The notes beneath the pieces were generated by a model that saw nothing but the letters and a program-made list of their open reading frames with translations, did not search any database and was not told where the DNA came from. A stretch of 64,000 nt of DNA from Plasmodiophora brassicae (lineage: Eukaryota), in NCBI GenBank assembly GCA_036867785.1, contig CP145410.1, positions 620,001-684,000 of the forward strand, given 5' to 3'. Position 1 is the stretch's first letter, and every line of letters starts with the position of its first letter. The position numbers and the translations under genes were made by a program. This document shows, in pieces, positions 8,010 through 64,000 of this stretch.

Positions 8010-10136
8010 TCAGGTGGAACCACCGTTTGACCAGCGGGAGAGCTTCAGTGTTGCTCGTATTTCGTCAGCGCAACCGACGCTATCGTACAGGTCGCACAAG
8101 ATCCGCCTTGCTGCCATCATGTCCTTCGACTGCAGGTCGGACAATGAGCAGAGCTTGCGAAATACACGACAGGCACGTTCCACGTCGCCGTGCTTGCGAC
8201 AAGCATCGAGCAGTTCCATCCACGATATACATGATAGAGTCGTCGTCGCCAGCTGCTCGCATTTGTCCAGGTCGCCTAGCCTGGCGTGCAAGCCGATCAA
8301 GCAGGCCAGATGGAGGTCGTTCATGGTGATATGCCAGGTGCTGCAAAGCTCAGAGACGATACCGATCGCGAGGTCCAGGTCAGCGGCATGCCTGCATGCG
8401 GACAAGAGGGCGCCCAGCGTTACCTCGTCAGGCCTCAGGTTCGCCGTTTTCAACTGTTCGAACGTAACCATCGCGTCGGTGAGCATTCCAACGTTAGCGT
8501 ATGCTGCGATCATGGACGTGAACGTTACGACGTTTGGTGTCGACGTTTGACGTCGATCGCTGAACACGCGCTTGGCGGTACGAAGGTGTCCACTTTGAGC
8601 AAAAGCAGTGATAAACGCGCTGGTGAGATAGTCGTCTGAAGGCGCGACAAGGCACCAACGTTCGTGCAAGGAATACAGGAAGTCGACGTGCGAACAGCGG
8701 CCGCAACCGGCAACAAGGCAGCAAAGCGCAGGTATATCCAGGTCGATGCCACGTCTGCGCATGGCGTCCAGCAAGGCCATTGCCTGAGTAATGCAATCGG
8801 CCTTCGCGAATGCCGAAACAATGTTGAAACAGATCTCGGGCGACAGCATCAGGACACCTGGACTTTGCAGAACACGCTCACAGAATTCGACCGCTTTGAC
8901 GTGCACGCCATGGCGGCTGTAAGCAGCAATCATCGTATTGAACGTCGATGGACTTGGCACTGCCTCCTTGGCCCGTTCACCAAAGACACGCTCCGCTTCA
9001 TCCAGGTGACCACATCGATCATAGGCTGATACGAACGCGCACACGACAATGTCATTGTCTAGTAATGCATGCTGCCGTGCGTACTGCTGAAGAATTTCGA
9101 TGGCGGGCCGGTCAGAACACCGACCACACGCCGCAACAAACGAGACCAGAACAGGAGCGACAACGATCACGTTACGTTGAACCATGGTTCGGAAGACGGC
9201 CATGCCCTGGGTGACCCGATCCGCATTGGACAATGCAGATAGGATGTGGGTGAAGATCTGTTCGGATGGCGGCAGCAAGATGGCATCCATCAACGGGATA
9301 ACGTTGCAGGCCGCATCGACTCGGTTCTGCGACACGAGCGCCTTGACCAGGTTGCCGAACGTCTGGCGGTTCCGGTGCGGAGCAATACGACCATGACGAA
9401 TGAGGCGTAGAAGGTGTTCGGCGGTGTCGGCCGCGTCTGGCGAGTGACCTTCGGCGCAGCACGCCGCAAACATTGACAACAGCTTCTCGGTCACATCGAC
9501 CTGGTAGTGGATGGAATCCCTCACCAGGGCGAGCGCCGAACCCGGTCGATTGGACGCTCGACAAACGTGCGCGACGCTGTAGATGGCGTTGTGGGAGCGT
9601 AGCCCGCATTTCGCATAGAGCGCCAGAACGTCAGAGAGTCTCGGGGGCGTTGTCATCAGGCAGGCATGGACGAAGTTGCCGAACAGGCTATCGCACACGT
9701 CAACACCATTGCAAAGTGCGGCATCGAGAACAGTCGGCGCTTTCCCAGGCAGACATCTCTTGCAAGCCGACATCATCGACTGGAAGAACCGGATATCGGG
9801 CCGCCCATCGCAGCAAGCGAGGGCCCGTTCAAAGATCGTCCATGCGCGCCCAGGATCGTCTTCGTGTTTCAGCGCGCGAACTGCCAGCCGCACCGACGGC
9901 GCGCGGAGGAACTTCCGATACAGGTCCTTCGATGCGGGCCGCCGCGTCGCCGCTCCTGCTGGCGACTGCTCCGACGAGCGCCCTGGGCCAGGCAGCGGCC
10001 GCGGCCGCAGACTATACAGCGCCGTTCGCCTCTCGAGCAGCGCGCATCGCGTCAGCATTGCCGGGGACGACGGCAGTGCAGCTGCCTGCCACGGGGAACC
10101 GCGAACAGCGCCCCTGCCCCTGGGGACGAACTTCAT
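8010..10136 (-). CDS. PLS-class (E-type) pentatricopeptide repeat protein, intronless, no DYW domain; likely start Met at 10058
   Basis: 708-aa ORF with tandem 31-36-aa PPR motifs (TFNTMIAAYSRHG, TFTSMIAAYANVG, PDEVTLGALLSACRH). E1-like SWMELLDACRKHGDVERA. Arg-rich N-terminus MLTRCALLERR. Confidence 0.9.
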   Translation of the reverse strand: MKFVPRGRGAVRGSPWQAAALPSSPAMLTRCALLERRTALYSLRPRPLPGPGRSSEQSPAGAATRRPASKDLYRKFLRAPSVRLAVRALKHEDDPGRAWTIFERALACCDGRPDIRFFQSMMSACKRCLPGKAPTVLDAALCNGVDVCDSLFGNFVHACLMTTPPRLSDVLALYAKCGLRSHNAIYSVAHVCRASNRPGSALALVRDSIHYQVDVTEKLLSMFAACCAEGHSPDAADTAEHLLRLIRHGRIAPHRNRQTFGNLVKALVSQNRVDAACNVIPLMDAILLPPSEQIFTHILSALSNADRVTQGMAVFRTMVQRNVIVVAPVLVSFVAACGRCSDRPAIEILQQYARQHALLDNDIVVCAFVSAYDRCGHLDEAERVFGERAKEAVPSPSTFNTMIAAYSRHGVHVKAVEFCERVLQSPGVLMLSPEICFNIVSAFAKADCITQAMALLDAMRRRGIDLDIPALCCLVAGCGRCSHVDFLYSLHERWCLVAPSDDYLTSAFITAFAQSGHLRTAKRVFSDRRQTSTPNVVTFTSMIAAYANVGMLTDAMVTFEQLKTANLRPDEVTLGALLSACRHAADLDLAIGIVSELCSTWHITMNDLHLACLIGLHARLGDLDKCEQLATTTLSCISWMELLDACRKHGDVERACRVFRKLCSLSDLQSKDMMAARRILCDLYDSVGCADEIRATLKLSRWSNGGST

Positions 10137-31900: not shown

Positions 31901-33883
31901 GATGGCGATGACCGGGTCGTACTCCGGAGCAGGTTCCAGCGTCCCTCGACAGGACAGCAATGTCTCAATGCAGGCCACGACGACGTTCTGGACAACATGA
32001 GAGAGGGCATGCGGTTCCGAACTGGGAAGCGAGGTGGGCGACGCTTGCTGGACTTCCGCGGCTGCAGACGACGAACCCTGTGACCCGAACTGCGACACGA
32101 CATTGTTAGCAGCGGCGAACACCTTTCGGCCGCTGCTGTCGATGTGACCAGCTGCAACGGCAACACCTTTGCGGCCACTTCGAACGATATCAGGGGCTGC
32201 TGGTGGGTCGTCCCTCGGCTGCATGAACCGTCCAGGCATTGGGATTGCGTTACGACCGTTAACTGGAAACAATTCGTCAACGACATCGGAAGGCAGACGG
32301 CCAGATCGGTGAAGTTCCGCGAGCTCTCTGTCCCTGTGCGACGAATCGGAAAAGAACGGCCGCTGTGCCAGGATGATGCCAGCGTCTCCACTGACTTGCG
32401 AGCCAGATACAGAGCAAGGCATTTCAGGAACGTGGTCGTCCTCAGGGAGTTCCTCAACGTCCACATCCGCCTCTTTCACTTCATGATCGTCAGTTTCTAG
32501 GCGACCTTCGTCTGCTGGTTCATCGACGTCAGCATCCGCTACATGCATTTCTGTATCAGCCCCTTGGTTGTTGTGAGCATTGAACTCTGAAATCAGATGC
32601 GGCCAATGGTCCAAGACGTAGGCCTCGGTAAGCCACCGGTAGGGCTTCCCAGATTCGACCGGAGGGCTGGAGAGTCGGAATCGGTACTGGGGATACCGTC
32701 CAGAGCGATCCATGCGAACGCCGTCAATTCGAGGCTCGACTCGAAGAGACCGCCGACGATCTTTACGATCGATCTCATTGCAGGCTTGTTCGAGCTGAGA
32801 CAAACCGGAAGGTTGGTCACCAGCGATCATGTCCCCCAGGTCACTTTCCACAGCTTCATCCTCACTGGTTGCATTGCCCCCGCCGAACTTGTTCCGGTTC
32901 ATTGCTGTCAGCAGGTCCTCATCCGAATCGACAGGCTCTTGCGGTGGAAGAACTTCGCCGTCATTGACGTCTACGCTCGCAGCTTGCGACAGAGCCATCT
33001 GCGACAGACTTAACGGCTGACTGCCTGGCGGAGCTTCGAGCGAGGCCGCCTCTTGAAGCAAAGCTTGAAGGCGTGCCCGCGCCGCTGCCTCGGGCCCCGA
33101 CGGCGCGTAATGATCGACCCGAGCGGTGAGCTCCTGCTCATGCAGTTGACTCGACAGCCCAAGGTCTTTCCATACGCTGGCAAGCGACGGGACGGTCAAC
33201 CCCTCAGGGACGGCGTCATAGGGATTCAAGATCGAGTCAGCGTCAACGTCGATTTCCAGGATCTTCTCGGAGGCCACACGCGCGATAGGGCTCAGCGTCC
33301 CGCCTGGCAGGTCGACACCGTCCCGATATCGGCAGTCAGCACGTCGGAGATGCAACCAGTCCATGCCATACAGCAGGTGCTCGATAAAGAATTGCAGCGT
33401 GTACGGGACATGTGCGTGCTGGACGAGGAAGCGATGCCCGTTGAAGAGTGTTCCAGAGCGTAACAGGGCGGCCACAGCCTTCATCGATGATGGATCAGTG
33501 AGACTGATCCTGGCCATGCTTCGCATCCGCCGACAGTACCCATAGACCGGGCGGCGCTTGACAAGCTCGGCGGAATAGATAACGGGAGGCGTGGTGGCCG
33601 ATGCCGACATGGCGTCATGAAGGCAAGAGCACAGTAGGTCAAGGTCGGGTGCACCTTGATCGATGTCGTCGACGTCGATGAGAAGGTAAGGGTAGAAACC
33701 ATGGATATGCAGGCAGACGGGTTGTCGGGCGCCGGCCGCCGAGCCGAACACGCGAATTTCAGGTGATCGTGTGGGTGCCAGGCGTCGGTCGCCAGACCAA
33801 GGCAACGGAACGCGGTTGTCAGGATCGATGGCGTGGACGGTCCAGTCAACAGTAACGATGCGGACCGACAGTGTGTCCTCCAT
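28966..33883 (-). CDS. REV3: DNA polymerase zeta catalytic subunit (multi-exon)
   Basis: N-terminal IRVFG..CLHIHGFYPYL and HVPYTLQFFIEHLLYGM. TSELARLFGIDFYSVLTRGSQ, LDFQSLYPS, KMLANVTY/GYTAAGFSGRMPCAEIAD, YADTDSMF. C-terminal CysA/CysB motifs and terminal DW. Confidence 0.95.
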
Positions 33884-34039
33884 CGACGACTCGCGACCAA
33901 CGGAGTGCGCGGTCGGGAGCGCAGCGAGGTCCTGTCGCCTCAAGCGGCGTCAAGTGCCGTCGACACCGACAACGGCGAACCCCGGTTAGGTTGATCTGCT
34001 CGACGCCATGTCATGGTCGATCGCACCTCGCAACCCGTT

Positions 34040-40658: not shown

Positions 40659-41948
40659 TCACCTCCAGATGCGTATTGTTGTATCAGCGGATGCGGACGC
40701 TAGAATAGGTCGAAAGGGATGGAACGCAACAGCGTAGACGCGATCCCGATGGCCTTCGAGGACGCGAGGTGTGATCGGGGACCCAGACGCGCGCTTGGCG
40801 CCTACGTCGAATACGTAGGTGAGCGCGTCAGCACTGCCCGATGCGATCAGGCATTGCGGCAATCGGTCGTCGACGTCCACGATATCATCGTCGGTCGACT
40901 CGGACGTCGGCCGCGTATCGCAGAAGATGGCGCTGCGAATCGGCCAGTTCCGGCTCTTGTGCCCGCGTAACTCGTGGATGACCGTCATGGACGATCGGTC
41001 GTAAACGTGGATAACGTTGTCAAATGCGTTGCAGGCGACCAGCTCGGCGTGCGCTGCAATATGCGAAATAGGCGACCCGATCGACACGGCCGATACGCAG
41101 CAGTCCGGTTTCGTGACATTCCATGTCTTCAGCATGCCCGAATGGTCTCCTGTTAGCACCTGCCGACCGTTTGGACTGCAGTAAACGCTGTTGACAATAG
41201 CGTCGTTCTTCAACGTTGCAAATGGCACGACACCCAGTCTAGTTCCAGTCAGTCATCGGTGAGATAGCAACTTTCGTCTAATGCCGTACCGTCTGTCAAA
41301 GCCGAACACGGCGCCTTGGGTGGTGGCAGCAAACCAGATATTGCCATCGGTTGCACTCGATATGGATTGAATGGCCCCGTGTCCACCGCCGATAGTGGCA
41401 GCCGCATGGACAGTCCCCAAATCCCACAGCTTTGCCGTGCCATCGTAGGACCCGGTCACAACTGACGTCTCGTCGAGCCATGCCACCGCCGCCACGCTCC
41501 TCTGATGGTCGCTCAGCACGACCGGCTCCACAGGACATGCAGTCCGAGTCGCTTCGACGTCCCATATCCGGGCGGAGCCATCGAACGCGCCACTGCAGAG
41601 CCGTTTGCCGGACGGCGAGAACGCCACCGCGTACACCGCCCCCGTATGCCCTTTCAGCGTCTGCCTGCACTCGAACCTGGCCGTCGACGCCGGCTCGTGC
41701 TCCGCCTCCGCCGGCGTCGCATGCCTCGCCAGCGCTTCCGTGACGTTGAACGGCGCCACCGGGTGACGCAGTCGCGACAGCAACCGGGCCTGCTCGAAAT
41801 TCATCTCGTAGGCGGTCCGCTTCAAATCCCGGTTCTCGCGTTCCAATAGGTCCACCTGCGCCCGCAGCTTCCGTATCGTGGCCTGGGCCAGCTCCAGGCT
41901 ACGCCCGGTCGATGGCGCCGTCATCGTCCGCGGCACATCTCCGCTCAT
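40659..41948 (-). CDS. WD40-repeat protein with N-terminal coiled coil (2 exons)
   Basis: IRKLRAQVDLLERENRDLK coiled coil, GHTGAVYAVAFSP..SGAFDGSARIWD, GHRDRVYAVAFHP..SASADTTIRIW. Confidence 0.85.
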
Positions 41949-43392
41949 CGTCCAAAACGCGTCTCAGGGAGTGTGGTGTGCACCTCGGCGCGAACCCGGC
42001 ACCTTCGGGCGCCGTCCCGGTGCGGCTTGTGCCAGCTGTTGTCATGGCGACGGCGAGGTGATCACCACGATCATCATCGGCCACTCTGGCGACGACGGCA
42101 TCCATGGCGGTCTGTTCGCGGTGATGCGCGACGAAGTTGTCCCAGGCAGCGTGCGGCTTGTCGAGGTATCGTACGAAGGCGCCCGATTCCATCAGGGACA
42201 TGGTGCCGGCAACGGCGTCGTCGAACAGGCCGGGGCGGACGTACTCGGGGCGGACAGCCCCGCCGAGGAAGATCACGTTGCGGAAGAGTTTGATTTGCGG
42301 GCTGGGCAGGTTTACTTCCAGGGGAGCGCCCTGGTTCAGGTACAGGCGGAAGATGCCCTCGGCGAGGCCGGCCGAAGGGTGCGCCCTGTATTTCTTGACG
42401 TCGCGCCAGAAGTACAGAGATTCGACGCAGAACTCGTCCATCAGGTGCGTTTTGAACGATTCGAACCCCACCGGTGTGCACAGGAACCGTTCCAACTGGC
42501 CAATGCGTGCCGCGTCAGGGTCGCCTGCGCCGACTGACGGGTACCGCCTCAGGTCCAGAATTGGCCTGACGAACATGGAATACAGTACGAAGTCAATAAC
42601 GACAATGGTGATCGCGGACGGCGCCTGGGACGAAGTGGCCGTTGAAGACAACGCTTGAATGGCGCCGTGGAGCAGGAAGGCAACCAAGCAGCCTGAGACG
42701 GTCCTCCAAAGCATGAGCCTCGTTCCCCACCCGTCAAACGAAATTCGAAGGCGCTGTAACAGCGTGATCGTGGCAGTAAGCGTTGGCACGCGGAACATCA
42801 GGCACAGGTTGCTGAACGTGATGGTGCCCAGTGTCGTGGAGTGACCTGGGATCGCCGTCAGGTCTGCGTGCGCTAACGCGTACAACGCCATGAACGCCAG
42901 CAGTATGATCCATTGCAGGGCGATCCAGCAAATGACGAACCTGCCTCCGGATACAATGTTCGAGTATCGGATCTCTTGCTGGGCGCGGTTAGCGTCACCC
43001 CCAGTTAACGGGCCCCGCTGACGCAGGGCGACCCGCTTCCGTGCGCGATGGTTCGCCACGTACAACGTTAGTGTAAAAACGAACAGCCCTTCGACTAGGA
43101 AAACGAGTAGGGACTGGCAGACAAACACGTCGACGATGGGGGGAATCGACTCGGTAAGAACGCAACGTGAAGCCTGCGCAAGGATGAGCAACGTGGCGCT
43201 GACGCCCATGAAAGCCAGCAAGTGCGGGCGTCGGCTTTTAACGGGTTCCAGGGCGGCGTGGCGAAGGTAGAACGGCACGATAAGTAATGCCGGCACATGC
43301 AGGGCAATGACGCCGACCCAAGCGCCTCGCTCAGCGGGCGTCATCGATCGTGCTCGTTCCCGCTTTCGGAACGGGATCACGAGTCGTACCAC
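41899..43392 (-). CDS. 7TM-RGS protein (multi-pass N-terminus plus C-terminal RGS domain), intronless
   Basis: About 7 hydrophobic helices, then LERFL...GFESFKTHLMDEFCVESLYFWRDVKKY...IFRLYLNQGAPLEVNLP...LFDDA....LMESGAFVRYL. Confidence 0.88.
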   Translation of the reverse strand: MVRLVIPFRKRERARSMTPAERGAWVGVIALHVPALLIVPFYLRHAALEPVKSRRPHLLAFMGVSATLLILAQASRCVLTESIPPIVDVFVCQSLLVFLVEGLFVFTLTLYVANHRARKRVALRQRGPLTGGDANRAQQEIRYSNIVSGGRFVICWIALQWIILLAFMALYALAHADLTAIPGHSTTLGTITFSNLCLMFRVPTLTATITLLQRLRISFDGWGTRLMLWRTVSGCLVAFLLHGAIQALSSTATSSQAPSAITIVVIDFVLYSMFVRPILDLRRYPSVGAGDPDAARIGQLERFLCTPVGFESFKTHLMDEFCVESLYFWRDVKKYRAHPSAGLAEGIFRLYLNQGAPLEVNLPSPQIKLFRNVIFLGGAVRPEYVRPGLFDDAVAGTMSLMESGAFVRYLDKPHAAWDNFVAHHREQTAMDAVVARVADDDRGDHLAVAMTTAGTSRTGTAPEGAGFAPRCTPHSLRRVLDDERRCAADDDGAIDRA

Positions 43393-43469
43393 GAATCTTC
43401 CTATCTATGTCACCTGATGCACGCGACCGCCTCAGAACAGTACTGTGGTGGATACGCTTCATATTGTCA

Positions 43470-52225: not shown

Positions 52226-55200
52226 TCACTTCAGCAGTGCATTCGTCGAGCCGACCATCTTGTCGAAGAGGCCCCTCAACCGGTTGTACAGTGGGTCCAG
52301 GTCGGCGTTCTTTCGTGTCTTGAATACGTTCAGTGCGAAACGCAATTCGTCGATCTGGGCGAGTAGGGCAGCTTTGAGTGCAGACTGGGAGGCTTCCTTG
52401 CCGGGCACGGTTGTGTCGAGGAACGCTTCGATGTACTTCTTGGTACCGCCATTGACGGCGGCATCGCAGATGCCATTCAGCAGCATCGTTAGAGGGCCCA
52501 GATCGAGGAACTCCTCACGGTGAGCCGCCTTCTCCAGCGACAAGGCCGTCGAACGCAACTCGTTGTTCTTCTTGACGATTGTCTCAACAGCAGTATCGAT
52601 TGGATGGACGACGCGTTGAACGGTCTCAGCAACGGGCAAGCGACGCTGCGTTGAAGGGAAAGGCTCCTTCGTTCGGATAAAGGTCTTGCGAACCCAAAGG
52701 TCCTTGAACTCGTTCGAAGGGCGCGCTTCCCCAGACCGGTTTTCCGTCTTGCAGTACACGAAGACAGAAACCTCATCGTTTGCACGGTACTTCAGCACCT
52801 CCTCAGGAATATGGGCCTAGAGTGGACCACTGAGTACATACAACGATTGATAGCATACCGAAACGTACAGGAACGCGAGAAACACTTCCATCCACACCAA
52901 GCATTTCCGCTTGGCTTGACAGCGTCAACGATGTAATCGTTATAACGAGTTCATGCTCGTCAACAACATCGGCAGGCGGGTCGTCGGAGGTCATGAGGAT
53001 CTTCGCATTCGTGTGCATTGCCCTGATCCGCTGTGTGAAATCCATAACGGACTCCAGTTTGATTCCACGGTAGACGAACTCTTGTCGGTCGGTCCTGAGC
53101 AAAACCGGTTCAGTTCACACTCAACGCAAGCGTCCAGCGGCGCAAACCTATTGCTGTAGAACACCACTCGGAAGTACGATGGGAAGTACCGCGTTTGGCT
53201 GATGATTTTTCTGAAGAGTGCCGCCTGACGCTCCAGAATACCAGCAAGCTTGTCGTAGTCGAACAGGTTGACCTCATAGTGAACGCGCAGCTGCTCGCAT
53301 GCTTGTATCGCGCGTTCCCACAGCTCAGCGCGATCATACAGGTCGATAACTCGCAAGAGCAGGTGTTCCTTTTGAGACTCTTCGGTCTCGATGCCAACAC
53401 CGCCATCAACAGTATCCCAGTTTGATAGCGGAACCGAACTCCAGTCAAGCAGCTGTGCTTGTAGCAAAGCAGTGTTACCAGCTTCTGCAAATGCACCGAG
53501 AGATGCATTCAGGTCGATCAGATATGAATAGTACCTAGACGGGTGAAATCAGACGAGTTAACGCAGCAGAAAGGCGCTGCATACCGGTACAGCATGGTCT
53601 TTCGACGACCAGCATTGGAGTCGGACAGCAGGAAGTCGAGCAAACGGGTCACGATTGACGCCCGTTCGTGCTCATACTGTTCAGTCTTGGGGAGCAGCAA
53701 CAGGGACTGCATGAGGTCAGCCAAAGTAGACAGATGCTGCAGGAACTCCTTCAGTTTCGCTGCAAGGGACGATTCCTCGGGGCGGAGCCGCTCCTTCAAG
53801 GAGGAGTCCAGACGACTAACAAAGAGCTGCGCTTCCTCTTGAGATTCATTCGCAAGGACATCCAAGGCGTCAATGGTATAGCGCTCCAGTTCCGAGAGGT
53901 CGTCAGACCGCGCATGCTCTTCCCTGACAAGGTCCATATACATATCCATTGCAAGTAGATGGGACTGGCAGCTTTCCTCTTCATCAGTAGGGTCAGGACC
54001 CGCGCGTCGCGATAAAGGAATCAGGAGACTCGTGCAGAAGAAGTGTGAAATGCACCGAAGGTCCTGAACCGTGCGCCAAGCCTTCCGGATGACCGTTCGG
54101 GTGGTTTCTGGCAAAGCGGCGGGGTCCACAAAAGCCCGCTTGGCTTCAGTCAAGCCATGAAGGTCCTTGTGAGTTTCGAGAACGACACACAGGTGGAGGA
54201 AAGCCTGCATTGTCGGCAGGTCCAAGGCCGCCGAATGCGCTGATATCGCAGAAATGACGCGACCCACAATAGACAGCTCCCAGGTGTTCAGAACGATCCA
54301 CATTGAGGGGTACACCCGATGCTGGAGGGCGGTCTCGCAGACTTGAATCAATCGGATCAAATCGTGGTTCTCCAGAGATCCAAAGCATTCCGACATGTCC
54401 TCGTCAGGAATGCAATGCAGAATGATGCACAAATACGCACAGGATTCCATGACGAGGTCGACGGACCGAGTGTGCTGAGCCTGCTGGGATACGACAGGAG
54501 CAGCACCGTTGCGAGCTTGGGCGCTAGATGCTACGTTGACCAGCGCGGGAAGAAGAACAACAAACGGTGACAGATCAGCTGCTCCAGGACCACCTTCGGA
54601 AGCCGACTGGATCACCTGAATCAAATCGCCAACGATCCCGACGGCCAGGTATGATTCGTCAGGCGTGCTCGTCAAGTGGAACTGGAGAGCGGCAATGACG
54701 GTCGTCTCGATGATGGACCACGAATCGCATTGCCGTCCAACGACAGACTGCACGATACTGCCGATCATGCGCAGCTTGTACATGTGCAACTTCGCATTGT
54801 CCTCTGAATGAGGAACCGCATTCAGGGCCGACAGGCAAATCTCGCCCAACTCGACAGGAGAGAAGATTTCGGATAAGTCAGCGAATGTCGAGCTGAAAGC
54901 ACGAAGAACGAAGGCCTTGCATCCGATCAACGGGTCCTTCGGTCCACTTTGAGTCTCCAGGAGAGCAGTGACGTCACGAAGCAGAGCCTGCAGATGACCC
55001 TTGAAGACAGCCGATGACTTCGATGGCTGCTGGGAGGCACTTCGAACGATGAAGCGCAGGACATGCTGGAAACACTTGCACATCAAAGTCAGCTGCTTGA
55101 ACTTTGTCGAGTTTGGTGCTGTGCTGTGGACAGTGGCGTACTCTAGGGCCATTCGAGATCGCGCGATCAGGATTGGGCAAGCGTCAGGCGCGTGGAACAC

Positions 55201-58087
55201 TTCGGATACATAGGAATCAACAGATGCGCCCACCGTCGACATTTTCGTCGTCAGCTGGTCGATGGTGAACAGTAGAGCAAGAAACACTTGACCAATGATA
55301 TCGTCGTTGTAGACAGGTGAAACGAGAACAGCGAACAGTGTGTCGAACGTTTCCTTGACGAATTTCGCAAGTTCGGCACCTGAAATCATTGTAAACTTCG
55401 TCAGAACCGTCTGCATTTGCGCAGCGTCGAGTTGTCGCCAGTTGAAGAGGGCATGCAGAGCGTCCAACTGTGTGGTCTTCACCGAACTGAGGCGCGTTTC
55501 AAGAACCAGTTCTTCTTTGCGTCGCATCAGCACCGAATGGGCCCGACTCCGGTTGTCATCCGACCTGAAATGCGCGTTTGCATCAAGGTAACGAAGAGCC
55601 GATGAGGCGCCGCCTGCAGAGGGTTGTCCAAGGTTCTTGAAAGGCTTGTAGCAGGGCAATGTGTGGGTGCCATCAGCAATTACAGCACCGGTAGAGGACG
55701 TAAGTGGAAGGAACGCAAACGAGCAGAGCTGGTTGTTGTCCACGTTCGTCGACACATGCCAGACAGTGCACAGAATGTGGCACTTGGAAAACATCGACGC
55801 TTGGAGGCGGATGTTAAGCGTCTCACAGAAGACCGGGTTGTTCCAATGGTAGTTCACAGTGCTGCAGTATTCGGTGACACCCTTGACAGTTGGGCCAACA
55901 CCTCGGAAAATGCAATCGGGGACAATGTACCCGGAACCGGTCAATACCTGCACGCGGACCTCGATATTCTTCGCGCTCTTCTTCTTATCCTGCAGGAAGT
56001 CACCCCCACGAATCGTAACATAGAAATCGTTACGGTCGTCACTCGGATGGATGTTGCTGGACAGGGAGAGCATCTGCATGCGTGAACCAGTCGACAGGGG
56101 CTTTTTCGCAGGTTCGAGCATGAGACCGAGGGCGAACCCCTTCGTCTGGGGAATGATTTCAAAGTTCGACGAACCGCGAATGATCATATTGTGCAAGTCG
56201 CTGAACTGCAACGGTTCTTTCGCCCGGTAGACGACCAGGTGCGGAGGGTTGCACCATTGGCCAAGCTGCTCAAACAGTGGCGCGTAGGAGGACAACTTCA
56301 GTACGGCACAGCCGAAAGGTCGCCGGTAGCACGTCGATTTCTTGGACTTCTTGGTCGACGCGGGTTTTCCATCGAAACGCAGAGAGCCCATCCGGAAGAT
56401 TTGGCAGACGAGATAGAGCCCCTCCTTGAAGTGTGACAGTTCGACGTCGCGGAACTCGCCTTTCAGATTTCCCAAAAGGTTGATGTCCTCGGGCATTCCA
56501 GCAGCCGTCAACTCGACAACGTATTCCTCACTGACGAAGCGTTGCTGTTCCGGAGAGTACAACGAGAAGAATACCTGAGTCGATTCGCCGACGGAGAATA
56601 TGCATGCCATGACATCCAAATGAAACGTGAATGGCGTATTGCGCGGCAAGTTCGACTCGAACTCGAACTCATCGGAATCCGTCACGTTCGGTTTTCCAGC
56701 AGACGCCGCAGCCATGATTTGTCGACGCTCCTCCGCCTACGAATTATCCAGTCAGGATTCGAACATGAGGAGGAGGAGCAACAGACCAACCTTCTGCAAC
56801 CATAACGACGACGATTCTTTCTGCATCGTATCGTACATGTCGCGATGAAGAGACAAAAGTTCCTGAATGGGCGTGTTGGCAACGGTTGCCACCGCGTGCC
56901 CGGCTGTGCGAGGGCACATGTGTCCCTCATCGCATCGGCGGCAGCTCTCAAGAAGCTCAATGATTTCCCGCCCTGCGCCAATATCAGGAAACTATACACT
57001 GGAATGACCCGATAGGCCTTACGGATCCGTTCGCGGTCAGCTTGCGCAAACGAGGCATTGCAGACGTCACGCCGCATCGTCAACAGCTGCGCTGACCGTT
57101 CGTGAAGCTCATAATGCTCTTCCACGCGACCTTCCGCTATCAAATGACGCATATGATACTCGAATTTGCCGATTATCTATGAGCAGAAGTCAGTACATGA
57201 TCACAGAAATGCAGCACGTTGCAGACGACCTCTCCGATCTCGCTCGACAGCGAAGCCGTTTCCGAACGCTGACGAGAAACCGACCGCGACGAGGTTGACT
57301 CGCGAGAACTGACAGTTGGAGCCGGAGATGGAACAGACTCTCGTTGTGAAGACGTGGAACTCGGCTTCTCCGTTGACGGAGCTTGAGCGATGGAAACAAT
57401 AGGAGGGAGCGGCTTGAGCACACCCGAACGTGAGACGGAAGGAGGCCTAGGACGGTTGCACGCCGGGACGGGCGAATGCGAACGCGAATCTGGCTTTTCC
57501 CCGACAACCGGAAGGGAAGTCGCAGGCAGCTGACGCCTCTGTGGAGGTAACGGCCGAGATGCCTTCATGTCGAATGATGAGGGGATTGCAGGTTCGGCTT
57601 CCGGTCCTGCAGAACTCTTTCTTGCAACAAGCTGGGCCACGATAGCCCGCTTGGCCAGCATATCTTCCGACATCCTCCGAGGTTGTCGACCTTCATCACG
57701 AGAGCTTTCACCCGCAGTAGATCCTCTTGACGATGGCGATGCTGTCTTCTGGACTGGCTCTGCTGCCGGCTTTTCAATAGTCAAGACCTCAGGTGGCCCA
57801 GATGATTCATCATCTCCTTTGTCAAGCTGAATGTACGACGCAGGGAAAATGCCATTGACATTCTGGCTGGGATCGGTGGGATGGATCAGAGTGCCACGGT
57901 ACCACCCAGCTTGCTCGAATTGCACGTTCACGAGGGCGTTCACACCAAACGAGACCTGATGCGGTCCATTCGCTTCGAATGGGTACAGTGCTGCCAAACA
58001 GAATTAGCTTTGTCACGAAAGCAGCCCTGGCACACCCAGCGTCGTACCTCTGCCTTGCCGGTCAACCTTCGCCCAGGACGACGCCAT
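52226..58087 (-). CDS. DOCK-family (DOCK1-5-like) Rac GEF: SH3, DOCK_N, C2/DHR1, DHR2
   Basis: SH3 ALYPFE..GWYRG..GIFPASYI; YRRPFGCAVL; RNDFYVTI..GDF..KNIEV; PSYFRVVFY; EFVYRG; LTMLLNGICDAAVNGGTKKY. Confidence 0.93.
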
Positions 58088-58404: not shown

Positions 58405-59472
58405 TTATTGTGTGTGTGGCGCTTGTCGAAGAAATTCCGGATTGTACACCAGCAGCAGGGCTCGGATAGCGAATAAAACTGTGAACGTGTTTTCGTAGAA
58501 AATCGTGACGGCGTAGACGGCCATCATCGGGAGCGGAATATGTTCCGTGAACTGACGCCAATGGGAATATATCAGGTAGGTAGAATAAGGCCCCGAGAAC
58601 CAGCGAAGCAACGGGAACGATATATACTGCATCGCGTCGACGATACGGTACCTGTTCGGAAGGCATGTGTCACCAGCCATTAACATAGAACTCGCGAAAA
58701 CGTTGTGTTACACGAGGCTCTTCTCAGTTGCTGACTGAAGTGAGAATCGTAACAGGATTGTCACTAACGGATTAGTATTAGATCGCACATTAAACGGGCA
58801 TTCATGGTGGATCCTTACGGATTTTAAACACCTCTTGGAAAGTAATTACGGCGATGAACAGTGCTGCGCAACGTATCGGGTAAACGACGCGAAACGGACG
58901 ACTTCTGACGGTTCCGGTGTACCAAAGATTCCAAATAGCTTTGTTTGAAGTGAAAACACGATAGAGGCGCAGTAAACAGAAGGTAGGAGAAGAGGGCCAA
59001 GAGAGGCTGCAGGCGCAACGTCCCCGGTGGAGGTATATACACGCTCAACTTGGTTCGAAAGCTCGATCTCATGCGCAACGTGAATGCACAAGGTGAACAG
59101 ATGGTACCCAAGAAGGATGGGGCCATAATAGGACAGCAAATGCGGATACAAACCCACAGGATCTGGGCATATACAGGTTAGACACTCTTCGATCCATCAT
59201 TTCGCACCCATACCTTTCGACAGCGAGCGAATATGATCGACAGCGACAATATGCACGATAGCAGTGAAGGATACGGACGCATTGAACAATGCCCCGATAT
59301 TCGTCTTGAATGCGCGACGTTCCGCCTGCGTAAATTTATCGTACCGCCGGAACACGACGTGGCCAATGGAGTCACACGAAGCGTACAGCAGGCCGTAGAA
59401 TACTAACGACACGACGCTCTCGAACCATAGACACGGCAGCACCAGCCCTGCCCCTGCAGTACACCACGACAT
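58405..59472 (-). CDS. TLC (TRAM/LAG1/CLN8)-like membrane protein (multi-exon)
   Basis: Hydrophobic exons, LLGYHLFTL, ELSN, and F..R in a later helix. Exon structure is only partly resolved. Confidence 0.5.
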
Positions 59473-59604
59473 CACGTCAGCGCAATAAGCGCACCCGGCA
59501 CTCCGCTGGGGCGATCTGCTGGCCGCGACTCTCTGACTGACCACCTGTACAATGCTGGGACGCACAGTCGTCTAGTACCCACAACCGGCACTCGAGTTAC
59601 GCGT

Positions 59605-62442
59605 TTACCAATAATCTCTACATGAACATCTGCCGTTATGGAAATGATGTTGGCGGATGGGATCCCGGATGTAGATGTCTCGTTCGAAAAGCGCAGAGGT
59701 TCGCTTGGCGCCGTCGTGGCAGTCCCGACAGATCGGCGAGCTCTTCTCGACGCGAACCGCTTGCCCAACAGGCGCCACCTTGAGCGCATACGCAATGGCA
59801 AGCATCTCGCCATGCATCACATGATCGGGCGAAGATTGATTCACTTTGTATCCCGCTTTGACAAGGCGTCCCAAGAGCTCGTCGTGTTGGGCTCGGAAAT
59901 CAGGAACGGATTCGTATAAAACATCACTGGGTTGGAACGACATCCTTCCATCCACTAGACGTAGATCTGCCTGCTCGATGACCGTTGGCACAGACCTCAT
60001 CCCCATCTCGCTTCGCAGACGCGCTGCATCCTCGTCACGTCCACAACCAGAAAACATGTTTAGCATCAGCGCATACGCAGGCGCCAGCGCCTCTGGTTCA
60101 GCATTGCCGAAGGACAGAATACGTGCAAAGACGCGTTCGGCCCTTGCAACATCAGAATGGTGCCAACATGCCCGAAGGAGGGTTAGCCAGTGCCCAATTT
60201 GACCTTGGGAGTGACTTGCAGCGATCCGTTCTGCCTGCTCCAGGTTGCCCACTCGGCCATGCAGGTCGACCATGAAAACAGCACCGCCAGGCGACACGGC
60301 GACCTGATAATCCCGGGCGAACTCAGATAACACTGCGTTTGCCTGTGACAAATCCCCGACATGGCTGCATGCGGCCAGCAACGCCCCAAGTGTCGCCTCA
60401 GTCGGCAGCATACGTGAACTCTTCAGCCTTTCGTATGCGACCATGGCGTTCGACAGCATCCCCCAATCGGCAAACGCCGCCAGCATTGCATTGTAAACGG
60501 CAATGCTTGTCGTCGACACCTCTTTACAGTGCGATTCGAAGACTTGCGCGCTCGTTTCAATGTCACCACAGCGAGCAAATGCGGCCACGAGAGAGCGGAT
60601 AACGCCGTCGTCGCGAAGAAGAGCGTGATTGTGGTCCAGCGCGTACTGGTGCAAGGTCTGAAGAGCGGGCAGTTCGGACGAGCGACCGACGGCAGATACA
60701 AGTAAGGTAAACACATGTGCGCCTAAGACTATGCCCTGCGTCAGCATTGTGTCAAACAGTTTCATGGCATCAGCAATGCGGTTTTCCTCGGCAAGTACAG
60801 GGAGGATTGAAGCGAAGGTATCCGCAGACGGCTGCGTGTCGCAAGCGGTCATCTGCTCGAATGCTGACAGCGCTTGACTGGCCATTCCACAGCGACAGTA
60901 TGCACCGATCATTGCATCGAAAACGGTATTGCTAGGGGTGGAGGATTCTCCAGCATCAAAGATTTGCTTGGCGGTATCGATCAGACCACATTTGCCATAA
61001 GCGACAATAAATGCCCTGACAACAGCGTCGTCTGTCATCAGCCCATGGTCATTCGCAAATCGACGCAGCGACTGAAGTGTGCCAAGCTCTGCAGTGCGGC
61101 CACATGCGTCGACAATCGGAACCAACACATCAGGGTCTGCCTCGACCCCTCCTCCAAACGTGCTGTTAAAAACGGACAATGCACCAGAAACGCAGCCGTC
61201 TCTGAGAAGCGCCATGACCAGCATTGAACATACCTCGCGGGCGGGTTCAGCTTCGCTGGGTTTGTACTTGTCAAAGCTTTCGACAGCATCCTGAAGCAGC
61301 CCATGACGGGTATACGTCATCACCATTGCACGGAGTGTCGCCTGGTCTGGCTTCGAGTTCGCGCAACGATCAAGGAATACCTGCCGTGCAGATTCCAGGT
61401 CACCACAACGATCGCATGCGGATATCAATGCGCAGACGACGAAGTCGTCATCTAGGAGTTGCTTGTCTCGGGCGTACTGCCACAATTTGTGGACCGAAGA
61501 CTGGTTAGCGGACCGGCCGCACGCTCCTACCAGCAAACAGAACACGGGATTGTCGACACGCAGGTCCCGTTTCACCATGCTTTCGAACAGAGCGATGGCC
61601 TGGAAGACGCGACCCGTCTTTGCAAGCGCCGACAGAATTAGGGTGGAGATTTGCATGGACGGTTGCACTCCGATGGATTCCATCAAGTCCAATGCGCGCA
61701 GGGCGGACGCGACACGATTCTGGGACAGCAGCGCCTTGACAAGGTTCGCATACAGCTGGACCTGCTTATGTGGGGCGATGCGCTTCGACCGAATATATCC
61801 TAGAAGACGCTCGGCAGTGTCGGCACCGACAGGGCGGCGAGCTTCAGCGCAGCATACTGCGAACAGGGACAGCATCTCCTCGCTGATCTCCACGTTGTTG
61901 TCAATCGCATCTGATACGAGGGACAATGCCGAGGCAGGCCGTCTCGCATGTCGGCAGATGTTTGCAACACCAAAGATGACATTGTGAGATCGAGGACCGC
62001 ATGTCGCGTATCTCTCTAGCACCTGTCGCATTAAGGGCCGCTTGGCGCGTTGGCACGCGGCGATAAACGTGCAGAAGAGAGCATCGCAGACATGACATCC
62101 GCGTTTCACAGCGGCGTCCAACACATCTGGCGCCTTGCCTGGCAGGTGCCGCTTACAGAACGACATCATGACTTGGTAGAATCTTACATCTGCAGCCATC
62201 CCCGTATCGACGACCTGCCGAAACACAGCCCAACCACGATTGCCGTCGCTCTCCACCTTCAACGTCCGAACGGCATGTGGAACAGATCGACAAAGACACG
62301 TGCCCCCTTCCACAGTGTCGCTCCCGTCGACAGCAGCCCCTACAGCAGGCGCGCTGGTTGCTGTAGATCGCCCCCACCGTGACGCGGTTTGCCCTCGCCA
62401 AATCGTCTGTCGAAGAATGAATCGAACTCGACCAAGCATCAT
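59605..62442 (-). CDS. DYW-type PLS pentatricopeptide repeat protein (PPR array, E1, E2, DYW cytidine deaminase), intronless
   Basis: 945-aa ORF. Transit-like MMLGRVRFILRQTIWRGQTASRWGRS. PPR array. C-terminus HGEMLAIAYAL-x-CRDCH..K..S..FERDIYIRDPIRQHHFHNGRCSCRDYW. Confidence 0.95.
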   Translation of the reverse strand: MMLGRVRFILRQTIWRGQTASRWGRSTATSAPAVGAAVDGSDTVEGGTCLCRSVPHAVRTLKVESDGNRGWAVFRQVVDTGMAADVRFYQVMMSFCKRHLPGKAPDVLDAAVKRGCHVCDALFCTFIAACQRAKRPLMRQVLERYATCGPRSHNVIFGVANICRHARRPASALSLVSDAIDNNVEISEEMLSLFAVCCAEARRPVGADTAERLLGYIRSKRIAPHKQVQLYANLVKALLSQNRVASALRALDLMESIGVQPSMQISTLILSALAKTGRVFQAIALFESMVKRDLRVDNPVFCLLVGACGRSANQSSVHKLWQYARDKQLLDDDFVVCALISACDRCGDLESARQVFLDRCANSKPDQATLRAMVMTYTRHGLLQDAVESFDKYKPSEAEPAREVCSMLVMALLRDGCVSGALSVFNSTFGGGVEADPDVLVPIVDACGRTAELGTLQSLRRFANDHGLMTDDAVVRAFIVAYGKCGLIDTAKQIFDAGESSTPSNTVFDAMIGAYCRCGMASQALSAFEQMTACDTQPSADTFASILPVLAEENRIADAMKLFDTMLTQGIVLGAHVFTLLVSAVGRSSELPALQTLHQYALDHNHALLRDDGVIRSLVAAFARCGDIETSAQVFESHCKEVSTTSIAVYNAMLAAFADWGMLSNAMVAYERLKSSRMLPTEATLGALLAACSHVGDLSQANAVLSEFARDYQVAVSPGGAVFMVDLHGRVGNLEQAERIAASHSQGQIGHWLTLLRACWHHSDVARAERVFARILSFGNAEPEALAPAYALMLNMFSGCGRDEDAARLRSEMGMRSVPTVIEQADLRLVDGRMSFQPSDVLYESVPDFRAQHDELLGRLVKAGYKVNQSSPDHVMHGEMLAIAYALKVAPVGQAVRVEKSSPICRDCHDGAKRTSALFERDIYIRDPIRQHHFHNGRCSCRDYW

Positions 62443-62613
62443 CGCCCAGCTATAGCAGGGGTGCTGCAGACCGAACTGATGTGCCGCCGCACGGAGTTGC
62501 CTCAGTCGTCAGTCAGTCATCAGTCATCACTCGCAGTCATCGATTGAAAGTTGCCATTGAAATACGATGCGGTTTACTGATTTTCGCAACCTGCAGCTGG
62601 CTGCGTGATGCGG

Positions 62614-63036
62614 TCAGACACAATGGGGTTGACGGTCGGCCAGGACTCGACAGGACGACGGCGGCGGGCAGTCGTAGCCGAAGACCCAGTTGCCGAACGC
62701 GTCGCATGCGTAGATGGTGCTGGCGTTGTTTGCGGGCGATTCGCCGCATCGATACTGCCCGGGTTTGCAGCCCTTGCCCGGCGGGACGCAGTGTGGGACG
62801 TTGTCGGACAGGACGCGGCAGACGTGCGGTCCGCCTGGTGCCGACGCGCAGTCTTCCTGCGGGACCCATTCGCCCCATGCCGTGCACGCGTAGATCGTGT
62901 CCGGCCTGGTGCCATTCCCTGTCACTCCGCACTGGTAATGCCCGGGTTCACATGCCCCGGTCTGGACAGCCGTTGACACCGCCACGTGGACGATGGCCGA
63001 CATCGCAACGTACACGACGACACTTCTCGCGTTCAT
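62614..63036 (-). CDS. Small secreted cysteine-rich protein with two tandem 6-Cys modules
   Basis: Signal peptide MNARSVVVYVAMSAIVHVAVSTA, then two copies of C.PG.Y.CG..TIYAC.A.G.WV...DC..CRVL.D..PHCV. Confidence 0.82.
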   Translation of the reverse strand: MNARSVVVYVAMSAIVHVAVSTAVQTGACEPGHYQCGVTGNGTRPDTIYACTAWGEWVPQEDCASAPGGPHVCRVLSDNVPHCVPPGKGCKPGQYRCGESPANNASTIYACDAFGNWVFGYDCPPPSSCRVLADRQPHCV

Positions 63037-63291
63037 GCTGAACACGCTGTCTGTTCCGCGTCGTTTCAGTTCGAATTCTGGAAGTGGCACCCAGTAGCAG
63101 TGTGCGTCGTGGTCCACTGACGCGCGCCCAGTGACGGCTGCAACTTGAGGGTGCGTTGCACGACTTGCACCCACAGGGTGCGCTGTGGTCCTACAGCTGC
63201 AGAGCTGCAGCATCACGCGGAGCGACGGTCCTGCCCTGATGAACGTTCGTTTATTCACCAGGCGTGTTAGGGAGTCCGGTTAATTACTGCT

Positions 63292-63750: not shown

Positions 63751-64000
63751 TAGTTTCGCGAAATATCAGTGAAGTGTGGTACTGTCTCGTGAATCGAAGT
63801 TCAGGAGGCATGACTCACGGGTGTGCTAGGTGTGAATCACGCCGCTCAGGCTGGTCCAGTGGTACCTTTCGTTCGCACGCGCGCAATCGTTTCCAAGCGT
63901 CCATGTGCCCGATTTATGTACTGTCAGCAAGCCTCCCGAATGCGCTGATAACGATATCATGCGCTGCCTGCAGCAGACTTGCCGAATGCATGTCATCTGT

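What the first reader, a model, noticed from the sequence alone, without database searches (positions are those of the whole stretch)
59605..62442. Plant-type DYW-PPR RNA-editing factor in a non-plant genome: candidate mitochondrial C-to-U editing system
Seen: an intronless 945-aa ORF with an Arg-rich transit-like N-terminus, a PLS-type PPR array, E1/E2 motifs and a terminal DYW domain. The domain keeps HxE (HGE, 59814-59806), exactly 25 residues, CxxCH (CRDCH), then HHFxxGxCSCxDYW. Established: this architecture defines the site-specific C-to-U editing enzymes of land-plant organelles and occurs only sporadically elsewhere, for example in Naegleria. Inference: the compact GC-rich context, with a roadblock dynein chain and an SH3-DOCK gene, looks like a protist rather than a plant. 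This lineage may therefore edit mitochondrial RNA, possibly after horizontal acquisition. I cannot confirm whether this has already been described for the organism.
Basis: partly seen in the sequence, partly recalled or inferred. Interest (0 to 1): 0.9.

Follow-up and report, generated by a model that had tools for sequence, protein, structure and literature searches.

The report
Clubroot parasite's PPR-DYW editing-factor gene
This is a real, transcribed gene of the clubroot parasite Plasmodiophora brassicae for a plant-style RNA-editing protein, one of at least 36 relatives, which suggests, untested so far, that the parasite changes C to U in its mitochondrial RNA.

Summary
It is 100% identical to Plasmodiophora brassicae PBRA_001489 (Rhizaria, clubroot agent) on an 874-kb contig. 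Spliced RNA contigs from 4 of 4 runs laid (4 studies) cover it. It is not plant contamination: the best plant identity is about 30%.

It is not a lone gene. Of the 30 best hits that I could name, 29 are P. brassicae paralogues. In a tree, 36 sequences form one clade (support 100/99) against plant-type DYW proteins.

The family has its own architecture:
- an Arg-rich N-terminus;
- a conserved 174-aa PPR-like N-terminal module;
- P-P-L-S four-motif blocks (period about 139 aa; plants about 101);
- a variant PG box.

Only 15 of 30 members keep the catalytic residues. This protein does, but its PG box is degenerate and its gating beta-finger is half length.

Mitochondrial C-to-U editing is the most likely role (about 0.55). 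It could not be tested here and I found no report of it. A role in splicing or RNA processing of the intron-rich mitochondrial genome is the main rival.

The parts
59605..62442 (-). Complete intronless CDS, 945 aa plus stop, equal to P. brassicae PBRA_001489 extended by 81 N-terminal residues
62443..62501 (-). 5' leader present on RNA contigs. The contigs end at 62449, 62469, 62496 and 62501. No ATG lies between 62501 and 62443.
62284..62442 (-). Residues 1-53: Arg-rich, acid-poor N-terminus resembling a mitochondrial presequence. It is missing from the deposited 864-aa model, which starts at Met82.
   Evidence: composition only, no targeting predictor was run
61762..62283 (-). Residues 54-227: N-terminal module conserved across the family, about five divergent PPR-like helical hairpins that Pfam does not detect
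60505..61761 (-). Residues 228-646: three P-P-L-S four-motif blocks (228-366, 367-504, 505-646), 27-35% identical to one another
   Evidence: my own segmentation, not PPRfinder
60199..60504 (-). Residues 647-748: terminal P2-L2-S2 motifs, as in plant editing factors
59983..60198 (-). Residues 749-820: E1 and E2 motifs
   Evidence: (below cut-off)
59608..59982 (-). Residues 821-945: DYW cytidine-deaminase domain
59947..59985 (-). Degenerate PG-box region (TVIEQADLRLVDG). Plants have PGxSWIE and the paralogues have PG-RTSL-L-DR.
59815..59847 (-). Shortened gating beta-finger: 11 residues between the conserved G-Y and HxE, against 20-22 in five plant sequences and a family median of 21
59806..59814 (-). 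HGE: zinc-ligand His877 and catalytic Glu879
59716..59730 (-). CRDCH zinc-binding motif. The Lys matching OTP86 K915 lies five residues upstream.
59608..59649 (-). HHFHNGRCSCRDYW: motif of the second, structural zinc site and the DYW terminus
8043..10058 (-). Second family member in the window (P0345). It has the same N-terminal module and P-P-L-S blocks, ends after E1/E2 and has no DYW domain (an E-type paralogue). It is 40.6% identical to residues 2-547 of the DYW protein.

Best explanation
This is a genuine, transcribed, intronless nuclear gene of Plasmodiophora brassicae. Its product is imported into the mitochondrion, which is the only genome-bearing organelle known in this non-photosynthetic lineage. 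There the PPR tract binds a specific stretch of a mitochondrial transcript, and the C-terminal E1-E2-DYW module places a zinc-dependent cytidine deaminase on a nearby C and converts it to U. The protein belongs to a lineage-specific family of at least 36 paralogues that arose from one ancestral gene. Shown here: gene identity, transcription, domain architecture, intact catalytic residues, DYW fold, family size and monophyly. Inferred: mitochondrial targeting, RNA binding and deamination. Because this copy has a degenerate PG box and a half-length gating beta-finger, it may be a weak or unregulated deaminase, or it may work together with a paralogue.
For: Identity: 100% match to PBRA_001489 on an 873,781-bp contig.
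Transcription: 4 of 4 runs laid (4 studies) have contigs colinear with 59214-62449..62501. Contigs in these runs carry 50-60-nt GT..AG introns removed from the neighbouring genes; the contig over the ORF itself runs on across downstream introns (four in X1, X2 and X6; one in X3), and X1's continues into the DOCK gene. So the contigs come from spliced RNA.
Domains: DYW_deaminase E=6.6e-21. H, E, C, C, H, HH, C-C and DYW are invariant against 8 homologues (7 named plants, one unnamed EukProt record). Lys matching K915 is kept.
Fold: the E2-DYW model has pLDDT 91.7. Its best matches are 9kfx (TM 0.82, normalised to the query), OTP86 7o4e (TM 0.87, normalised to the target) and DYW1 7w86.
Family: 29 of the 30 hits I could name are P. 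brassicae paralogues at 31-42% identity. 36 rows lie on one side of a branch, with SH-aLRT 99 in a 131-row tree and 100/99 in the careful 75-row tree. 15 of 30 members keep HxE plus CxxCH despite about 39% domain identity.
Targeting: 6 Arg/Lys and no acidic residue in the first 30 residues. 16 of 37 family rows show at least 5 Arg/Lys and at most 1 Asp/Glu there, and 9 of the other 21 models start at or inside the conserved module.
Precedent: DYW proteins occur together with mitochondrial C-to-U editing in Naegleria and Acrasis and in rhizarian paradinids.
Against: No editing site is known. The e3 mitochondrial genome paper mapped a transcriptome to the mitochondrial DNA and reports no editing; none of its 9 non-ATG starts is ACG.
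In OTP86, deleting beta-finger residues 875-890 markedly reduces editing. This protein has 11 residues where plants have 20-22.
The PG box is not conserved, even compared with its own paralogues, and Pfam does not match profile positions 1-22.
Only 4 of 15 well-defined motifs carry a canonical plant code pair, so recognition may differ or be relaxed.
Half of the family (15 of 30) has lost catalytic residues, in at least 9 changes on the tree. This shows that deamination is dispensable for many members.
In Naegleria (11) and Acrasis (12), DYW proteins far outnumber the confirmed sites (2 each).
Targeting rests on composition alone, with no control set.
Confidence: 0.55

Rival explanations
1. 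It is a mitochondrial RNA-processing factor that does not edit. The PPR tract binds a transcript to promote intron splicing, endonucleolytic cleavage or RNA stabilisation, and the DYW domain serves as an RNA-binding or structural module.
For: The P. brassicae mitochondrial genome has 54 introns (Spongospora has 5), unresolved splice sites and no reported editing. 15 of 30 family members have lost catalytic residues. This copy lacks half the beta-finger and the PG box. Fu et al. 2014 (passages read) suggest cleavage or splicing roles for surplus protist DYW proteins.
Against: This copy keeps every zinc ligand, the catalytic Glu, the Lys matching K915 and the DYW terminus, although it is only 32-43% identical to its paralogues in this region. 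That is hard to explain without selection on the active site.
Confidence: 0.3
2. It is a nearly neutral remnant of a once larger editing system: still transcribed, but without an essential role.
For: Catalytic residues were lost repeatedly in the family (at least 9 changes). The code positions are non-canonical and the PG box is degenerate.
Against: The 945-codon frame is intact. It is covered by RNA contigs in 4 of 4 runs laid. 20 runs from 10 studies hold at least half of its sampled words. Across the four runs only one base differs, in one run. The N-terminal module is highly conserved.
Confidence: 0.08
3. It is a parasite effector delivered into the host cell to alter editing in host organelles.
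For: P. brassicae lives inside plant cells. One transcriptome paper (passages read) reports that host PPR genes change strongly during infection. The protein type is native to plant organelles.
Against: The N-terminus is Arg-rich with no hydrophobic signal-peptide core. A 36-member family with a shared module looks like housekeeping machinery. Identity to plant proteins is only about 30%. The paper concerns host genes only.
Confidence: 0.03
4. It is plant DNA: contamination, misassembly or a very recent transfer from the Brassica host.
For: The architecture is plant-like, and the samples are infected roots.
Against: It lies in an 874-kb P. brassicae contig. RNA contigs join it to neighbouring parasite genes with 50-60-nt introns. 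GC is 0.560 and GC3 0.587, like the neighbours (0.567-0.737). The best plant identity is 29-30%. It falls inside a clade of 36 non-plant sequences. Runs from the same studies as some holders hold next to none of its sampled words.
Confidence: 0.01

Closest known systems
Land-plant PLS-class PPR-E-DYW editing factors (OTP86; the synthetic consensus PPR-DYW 9kfx; PPR56 of Physcomitrium)
   Same: Same C-terminal order P2-L2-S2-E1-E2-DYW. Same HxE-25-CxxCH signature, second zinc-site motif and DYW terminus. Same predicted fold. The gene is intronless. Organellar targeting is presumed.
   Different: Identity is only about 30%. The array is built of P-P-L-S four-motif blocks: a period near 139 aa in 17 of 36 family members, against about 101 aa in 65 of 75 other top hits and about 139 in none of them. 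An extra conserved 174-aa N-terminal module is present. The PG box is variant in the family and degenerate in this copy. The beta-finger is half length. Code pairs are mostly non-canonical.
DYW-type PPR proteins of heterolobosean protists (Naegleria gruberi, 11 genes; Acrasis kona, 12 genes), which go with 2 confirmed mitochondrial C-to-U sites each
   Same: A non-plant lineage, lineage-specific expansion, nuclear genes for mitochondrial proteins, and a suspected old origin from early land plants (passages read).
   Different: The family here is about three times larger (at least 36). All 12 Acrasis proteins are reported to keep the plant PG box, whereas the P. brassicae family does not. I had no heterolobosean sequences on hand, so array period and N-terminal module could not be compared.
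PPR-DYW proteins of paradinids (Ascetosporea, Endomyxa, Rhizaria), with massive mitochondrial C-to-U and A-to-I editing (Yabuki et al. 2025; abstract and passages read)
   Same: The same broad group, Endomyxa (paradinids; that Phytomyxea belong there is recalled), DYW proteins, and parasites.
   Different: Paradinids have 1-3 DYW sequences, and they share a 2-residue deletion between HxE and CxxC with fungi. In the P. brassicae family this spacing is 24-26, mostly 25, in the 15 intact members, so that deletion is absent. This argues against a shared origin with the paradinid-fungal clade, but I did not see the paradinid sequences.
Plant E/E+ PPR proteins that recruit a DYW deaminase in trans (DYW1, DYW2, MEF8 type)
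   Same: The family holds DYW-less members (P0345) and members with dead catalytic sites (15 of 30) beside intact ones. This is the raw material for a division of labour between site recognition and catalysis.
   Different: No short DYW-only protein and no MORF-like partner were looked for or found. Action in trans is pure inference here.

Membership tests
DYW-type PLS-class PPR editing factor (plant type) | Tandem PPR repeats | tested here: met
   PPR_2 E=1.4e-31 and PPR E=3.3e-30; 15 well-defined motifs segmented between residues 228 and 748
DYW-type PLS-class PPR editing factor (plant type) | C-terminal DYW_deaminase domain (PF14432) above the curated cut-off | tested here: met
   74.4 bits against a cut-off of 24, E=6.6e-21; the fold matches 7o4e, 7o4f, 7w86 and 9kfx
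DYW-type PLS-class PPR editing factor (plant type) | HxE(x)nCxxCH catalytic zinc signature with the catalytic Glu | tested here: met
   H877-G-E879, 25 residues, C905-R-D-C-H909
DYW-type PLS-class PPR editing factor (plant type) | Second zinc-site motif (H..HxF..GxCSC) and the terminal DYW | tested here: met
   HHFHNGRCSCRDYW; these columns are invariant against 8 homologues (7 named plants, one unnamed record)
DYW-type PLS-class PPR editing factor (plant type) | Lys that pairs with the catalytic Glu in the autoinhibited state (OTP86 K915) | tested here: met
   K in EKSSPIC, an invariant column
DYW-type PLS-class PPR editing factor (plant type) | PG box (PGxSWIEVxGxxHxF) | tested here: not met
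   This protein has TVIEQADLRLVDGRMSF. Pfam profile positions 1-22 are unmatched, and the alignments show no conservation. The model still predicts the two beta-strands.
DYW-type PLS-class PPR editing factor (plant type) | Full gating domain including the beta-finger of about 22 residues before HxE | tested here: not met
   11 residues against 20-22 in five plant sequences. The gating helix is predicted but only a loop follows it. Definition taken.
DYW-type PLS-class PPR editing factor (plant type) | E1 and E2 motifs between S2 and DYW | tested here: inconclusive
   Pfam E_motif scores 17.9 bits, below the cut-off of 27.3. The region does align colinearly with the stretch of 9kfx just ahead of its DYW domain and is predicted as two helical pairs.
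DYW-type PLS-class PPR editing factor (plant type) | P1-L1-S1 triplet organisation of the array (period about 101-102 aa) | tested here: not met
   Best self-offsets are 35 and 139. The period is about 139 in 17 of 36 family members and in 0 of 75 other hits, of which 65 have about 101.
DYW-type PLS-class PPR editing factor (plant type) | Canonical 5th/last-residue code at P and S motifs | tested here: not met
   4 of 15 well-defined motifs carry a canonical pair (my own segmentation)
DYW-type PLS-class PPR editing factor (plant type) | Import into a genome-bearing organelle | tested here: inconclusive
   Arg-rich, acid-free N-terminus. No predictor and no control set were available.
DYW-type PLS-class PPR editing factor (plant type) | Site-specific C-to-U conversion in organellar RNA | not testable with these tools

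The most novel reading that the evidence does not exclude
Plasmodiophora brassicae runs a large, independently elaborated mitochondrial C-to-U editing system. It comprises at least 36 PPR-DYW proteins plus DYW-less relatives, built on a non-plant P-P-L-S array with a divergent recognition code. All members carry a conserved N-terminal PPR-like module that docks them to a shared partner or a shared RNA feature. About half have dead deaminase domains that must borrow catalysis from intact paralogues. That would be an editosome-like division of labour that evolved outside plants and without MORF proteins, possibly tied to the unusually intron-rich mitochondrial genome.
Probability: 0.3. Interest if true: 0.8.

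Novelty: new variant of a known kind. Interest (0 to 1): 0.6.

Why it matters
DYW-type PPR proteins are the plant organellar C-to-U editing enzymes, and each occurrence outside plants bears on where that system came from. Here a major crop parasite that lives inside plant cells carries the largest protist DYW family I could compare: at least 36 genes, against 11-12 in heteroloboseans. The family also has an architecture of its own.

This gives a simple, testable prediction using public data: C-to-U differences between mitochondrial DNA and RNA in clubroot samples. If it holds, the published mitochondrial gene models of this pathogen would need revision, since they already show odd start codons and unresolved splice sites. 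A parasite-specific step of organelle gene expression would also become visible.

For people who engineer RNA editors, naturally shortened DYW domains (a half-length beta-finger with an intact active site) and a non-triplet PPR scaffold are useful natural variants for study.

Tried and rejected
- Whole-genome search for PF14432 was not possible: no genome is held for this window.
- Sequencing-run search: no RNA holder listed. That the runs I laid are RNA is inferred from the spliced contigs, not from their records. Contig depths were not used to rank expression.
- A direct test of mitochondrial editing was impossible. No mitochondrial sequence of this organism could be fetched, and only one read-laying run was allowed.
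- Target prediction with the plant PPR code was not attempted: only 4 of 15 well-defined motifs are canonical and there was no mitochondrial DNA to scan.
- Donor or sister lineage is unresolved. Four sequences (P0144, P0098, P0109, P0143) branch between the family and the remaining sequences, which include all ten named plant rows. P0144 is a 1.3-kb metagenome contig of unknown organism whose nearest relatives are land-plant and consensus DYW proteins. P0098 is a EukProt transcriptome record whose organism I could not establish. P0109 and P0143 stayed unnamed.
- The metagenome scan with P0001 found no relative: 58 stretches matched a peptide pattern and none was confirmed. The permitted second scan was not run.
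- Six members of the 36-row clade are unnamed, so they may come from P. brassicae or from a close relative.
- Knoop 2023 and Schallenberg-Rudinger 2013 are not held. Supplementary tables were closed, including Table S10 of the 2026 survey that lists the 31 rhizarian DYW domains; it may well name P. brassicae.
- The '(mitochondrion)' tag in some deposited protein names sits on proteins from contigs of about 1.1 to 2.1 Mb. I treated it as a submission artefact, not as localisation evidence.
- No complex prediction was run.
- Contamination and the effector reading were considered and rejected (see rival explanations).
Full report
OBSERVATION. The window carries a 945-codon ORF on the minus strand at 59605-62442. 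Pfam finds PPR repeats (PPR_2 E=1.4e-31, PPR E=3.3e-30) and a DYW_deaminase domain (E=6.6e-21, 74.4 bits against a cut-off of 24). The E_motif match is below cut-off. Among solved structures the best sequence match is a synthetic PPR-DYW (9kfx, E=1.6e-66); its chain residues 274-612 (its C-terminal end) align without a break to residues 611-945. The DYW domains of OTP86 and DYW1 follow.

ORGANISM AND AUTHENTICITY. The C-terminal 346 residues are 100% identical to Plasmodiophora brassicae PBRA_001489, which lies on an 873,781-bp contig. The next best named hits are plants at 27-30% identity, Sphagnum first. GC (0.560) and GC3 (0.587) match neighbouring genes (GC3 0.567-0.737), and the neighbouring DOCK gene is confirmed. 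Twenty public runs from 10 studies hold at least half of the locus's sampled words; none is on record as RNA. I laid four runs from four studies. In all four, contigs skip 50-60-nt stretches with GT..AG ends (read on the minus strand) in the neighbouring genes, so the contigs come from spliced RNA. In each run the contig that covers the ORF is colinear with 59214-62449..62501 and has no joint inside the ORF. That contig runs on across downstream introns (four in X1, X2 and X6; one in X3), and in X1 it continues into the DOCK gene. The gene is therefore transcribed and intronless in an intron-dense neighbourhood: 12 minus-strand introns (seven in all four runs) lie in about 6.7 kb downstream. 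Plant contamination is excluded. The contigs reach 7-59 nt beyond the ATG at 62442, and no other ATG lies in that leader. So the 945-aa reading is available on the mRNA. The deposited 864-aa model starts at Met82 and omits the Arg-rich N-terminus.

A FAMILY, NOT A SINGLE GENE. An exhaustive HMMER search with residues 611-945 gave 8430 hits at E<=0.001 and 622 at E<=1e-30. From the 149 non-self hits listed, I picked the 30 with the highest identity and fewest matched stretches and looked up their names. 29 are P. brassicae proteins at 31-42% identity and one is from Ginkgo. A newer NCBI annotation already calls most of them 'DYW domain-containing protein'. I built a tree of the last 230 residues (131 rows; 43 rows were dropped for lacking a GxCSC tail). 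In it the 30 named paralogues (P0001 among them) plus six unnamed sequences lie on one side of a branch with SH-aLRT 99. A careful IQ-TREE run used 75 rows: all 36 family rows, 4 near neighbours, 11 rows carrying a source name (ten plants, one EukProt transcriptome record) and 24 of 72 others drawn at random. It gave 100/99 for the same split, although the bootstrap had not fully converged. Divergence inside the clade (median path 1.90) exceeds that among the other rows (1.55). One old founding event followed by expansion within the lineage fits best. The tree is unrooted and no donor can be named. Four sequences branch between the family and the rows that include all ten named plants. One is a 1.3-kb metagenome contig close to consensus plant DYW proteins, one is a EukProt transcript of unknown organism, and two are unnamed.

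FAMILY ARCHITECTURE. (i) N-terminus. P0001 has 6 Arg/Lys and no acidic residue in its first 30 residues. 16 of 37 family rows have at least 5 Arg/Lys and at most 1 Asp/Glu there, and 9 of the other 21 models begin at or inside the next module. No targeting predictor or control set was available, so this is weak evidence for mitochondrial import.

(ii) Conserved module. Residues 54-227 are the most conserved part of the family. Median pairwise identity is 0.41 and 35 of 174 columns are at least 80% conserved, against 0.39 and 27 of 125 for the DYW domain and 0.29-0.36 for the central blocks. Pfam gives only a sub-threshold hit and the best sequence match to a solved structure is PPR10 at E=0.18. 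A language-model look-up places it among PPR clusters (0.94-0.96). AlphaFold folds it at pLDDT 97.7 into about five helical hairpins, and its best structural neighbours are PPR proteins at weak E-values (PRORP1 TM 0.73). A repeat module that stays the same while the central repeats vary suggests a shared partner or a shared RNA feature. That is inference.

(iii) Array. Self-comparison peaks at offsets of 35 and 139 residues. By my segmentation, residues 228-646 form three P-P-L-S blocks that are 27-35% identical to one another, followed by P2-L2-S2-E1-E2-DYW. The period is about 139 aa in 17 of 36 family members and about 102 in 3. Of 75 other top hits, 65 have about 101 and none has about 139. 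The self-similarity scores are low, so the 15 family rows classed as 'other' are not informative.

(iv) Code. Only 4 of 15 well-defined motifs carry a canonical plant 5th/last pair.

(v) PG box. The family shares a variant, PG-RTSL-L-DR, where plants have PG-SWIE.

(vi) Catalysis. Only 15 of 30 named members keep both HxE and CxxCH. Nine lack the Glu, three lack the His, and three more (beside those three) have lost a Cys. This needs at least 9 changes on the tree.

(vii) DYW-less member. The window holds a second family member (8043-10058, minus). It is 40.6% identical over residues 2-547 and stops after E1/E2. No DYW-coding sequence lies elsewhere in the window.

THIS COPY'S DEAMINASE DOMAIN. 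All zinc ligands, the catalytic Glu, the Lys that matches OTP86 K915 and the DYW terminus are present. The E2-DYW model (pLDDT 91.7) shows the two PG-box strands, the gating helix and the deaminase core. It matches 9kfx (TM 0.82 normalised to the query), OTP86 7o4e (TM 0.87 normalised to the target) and DYW1. Two features argue for caution. The PG-box sequence is degenerate even compared with the paralogues. Only 11 residues lie between the conserved G-Y and HxE, against 20-22 in five plant sequences and a family median of 21. This segment is the gating-domain beta-finger (OTP86 870-891), and deleting 875-890 markedly reduces editing (Takenaka et al. 2021, passages read). The closest paralogue by DYW region, PBRA_007800, also has HGE in place of HSE.

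WHAT IT MOST LIKELY DOES. From established knowledge of plant PPR-DYW factors, and from the co-occurrence of DYW proteins with mitochondrial C-to-U editing in Naegleria and Acrasis and in paradinids, the best reading is a mitochondrial, site-specific RNA-binding protein that supports C-to-U editing. My recollection is that phytomyxids have no plastid, which leaves the mitochondrion as the target. I put this at about 0.55. The main rival (about 0.3) is a non-editing role in splicing, cleavage or stabilisation. The e3 mitochondrial genome has 54 introns against 5 in Spongospora, splice sites that defied canonical rules and 9 of 32 genes without an ATG start. Its authors mapped a transcriptome and report no editing (section 7, part 1 read). 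Half of the family has lost catalysis. In heteroloboseans DYW genes (11-12) far outnumber confirmed sites (2 each), which led Fu et al. to suggest other roles.

WHAT IS KNOWN. Full-text searches gave no paper on the parasite's own DYW proteins or on its mitochondrial editing: Plasmodiophora with DYW (2 papers), a substring search (3 papers), Plasmodiophora with pentatricopeptide (22 papers, 15 listed, 2 read in passages), Plasmodiophora brassicae with 'RNA editing' and 'mitochondrial genome' (11 papers), and phytomyx- with 'RNA editing' (6 papers). One paper mentions two parasite 'pentatricopeptide repeat-containing' genes as differentially expressed. Yabuki et al. 2025 state that C-to-U editing had never been reported in rhizarians before their paradinid work, and they do not mention Plasmodiophora. 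A 2026 survey counts 31 DYW domains in Rhizaria in a supplementary table that I could not open. The domain's presence is therefore already catalogued. The family's size, architecture, catalytic split and implied editing in the clubroot agent are, as far as these searches show, undescribed.

VERDICT. The gene is a real, expressed member of a known kind (non-plant PPR-DYW) in a variant form: a four-motif array, an added conserved N-terminal module, a variant PG box and a shortened beta-finger. The function is not demonstrated. Interest is moderate to high. It is still worth following up because the prediction can be tested directly with public data.

Noticed in passing
window 8010-10142 (-): A second PPR gene of the same family (P0345), a single ORF about 50 kb away on the same strand. 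It has the same N-terminal module and P-P-L-S blocks, and ends after E1/E2 with no DYW domain.
   Followed up: partly
window 61762-62283 (-), residues 54-227: An N-terminal module of about five PPR-like hairpins, conserved across the family and undetected by Pfam. It is more conserved among paralogues than the DYW domain, with near-invariant Cys96, Cys130 and Cys198.
   Followed up: yes
window 62197-62442 (-): The deposited model PBRA_001489 (864 aa) starts at Met82. RNA contigs include the upstream ATG at 62442, so the model probably lacks the targeting sequence. Nine other family models also start at or inside the conserved module.
   Followed up: partly
window 59162-59605: Only about 40 nt separate the DYW stop codon from the ATG of the next minus-strand ORF (59565). 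RNA contigs run straight from the DYW gene into that four-intron gene, and in run X1 onward into the DOCK gene. This indicates overlapping UTRs or read-through transcripts.
   Followed up: no
window 62614-63258 (-): A Cys-rich 214-aa ORF with an internal repeat (two ...C.PG.Y.CG...Y.C...G.WV...DC... units) and no Pfam match. It is covered by separate contigs in three of the four runs.
   Followed up: no
window 57789-57841 and 63773-63830: One joint with GT..AG on the plus strand inside the minus-strand DOCK gene, seen in run X1 only. Two alternative joints lie 4 nt apart near 63775 in different runs.
   Followed up: no
window 60872: A single G>T difference inside the ORF in run X2 only. The other three runs match the window, consistent with a strain variant.
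   Followed up: no
names of P0028, P0043, P0048, P0180, P0207, P0214: Some deposited P. brassicae proteins from contigs of about 1.1 to 2.1 Mb carry the tag '(mitochondrion)' in their names. This looks like a submission artefact and should not be read as localisation evidence.
   Followed up: no
window 31550-33949 (-), 41899-43404 (-), 53518-56736 (-): Ordinary eukaryotic neighbours: a family-B DNA polymerase fragment, an RGS-domain protein, and a DOCK protein (DOCK_N, C2 and TPR regions).
   Followed up: partly
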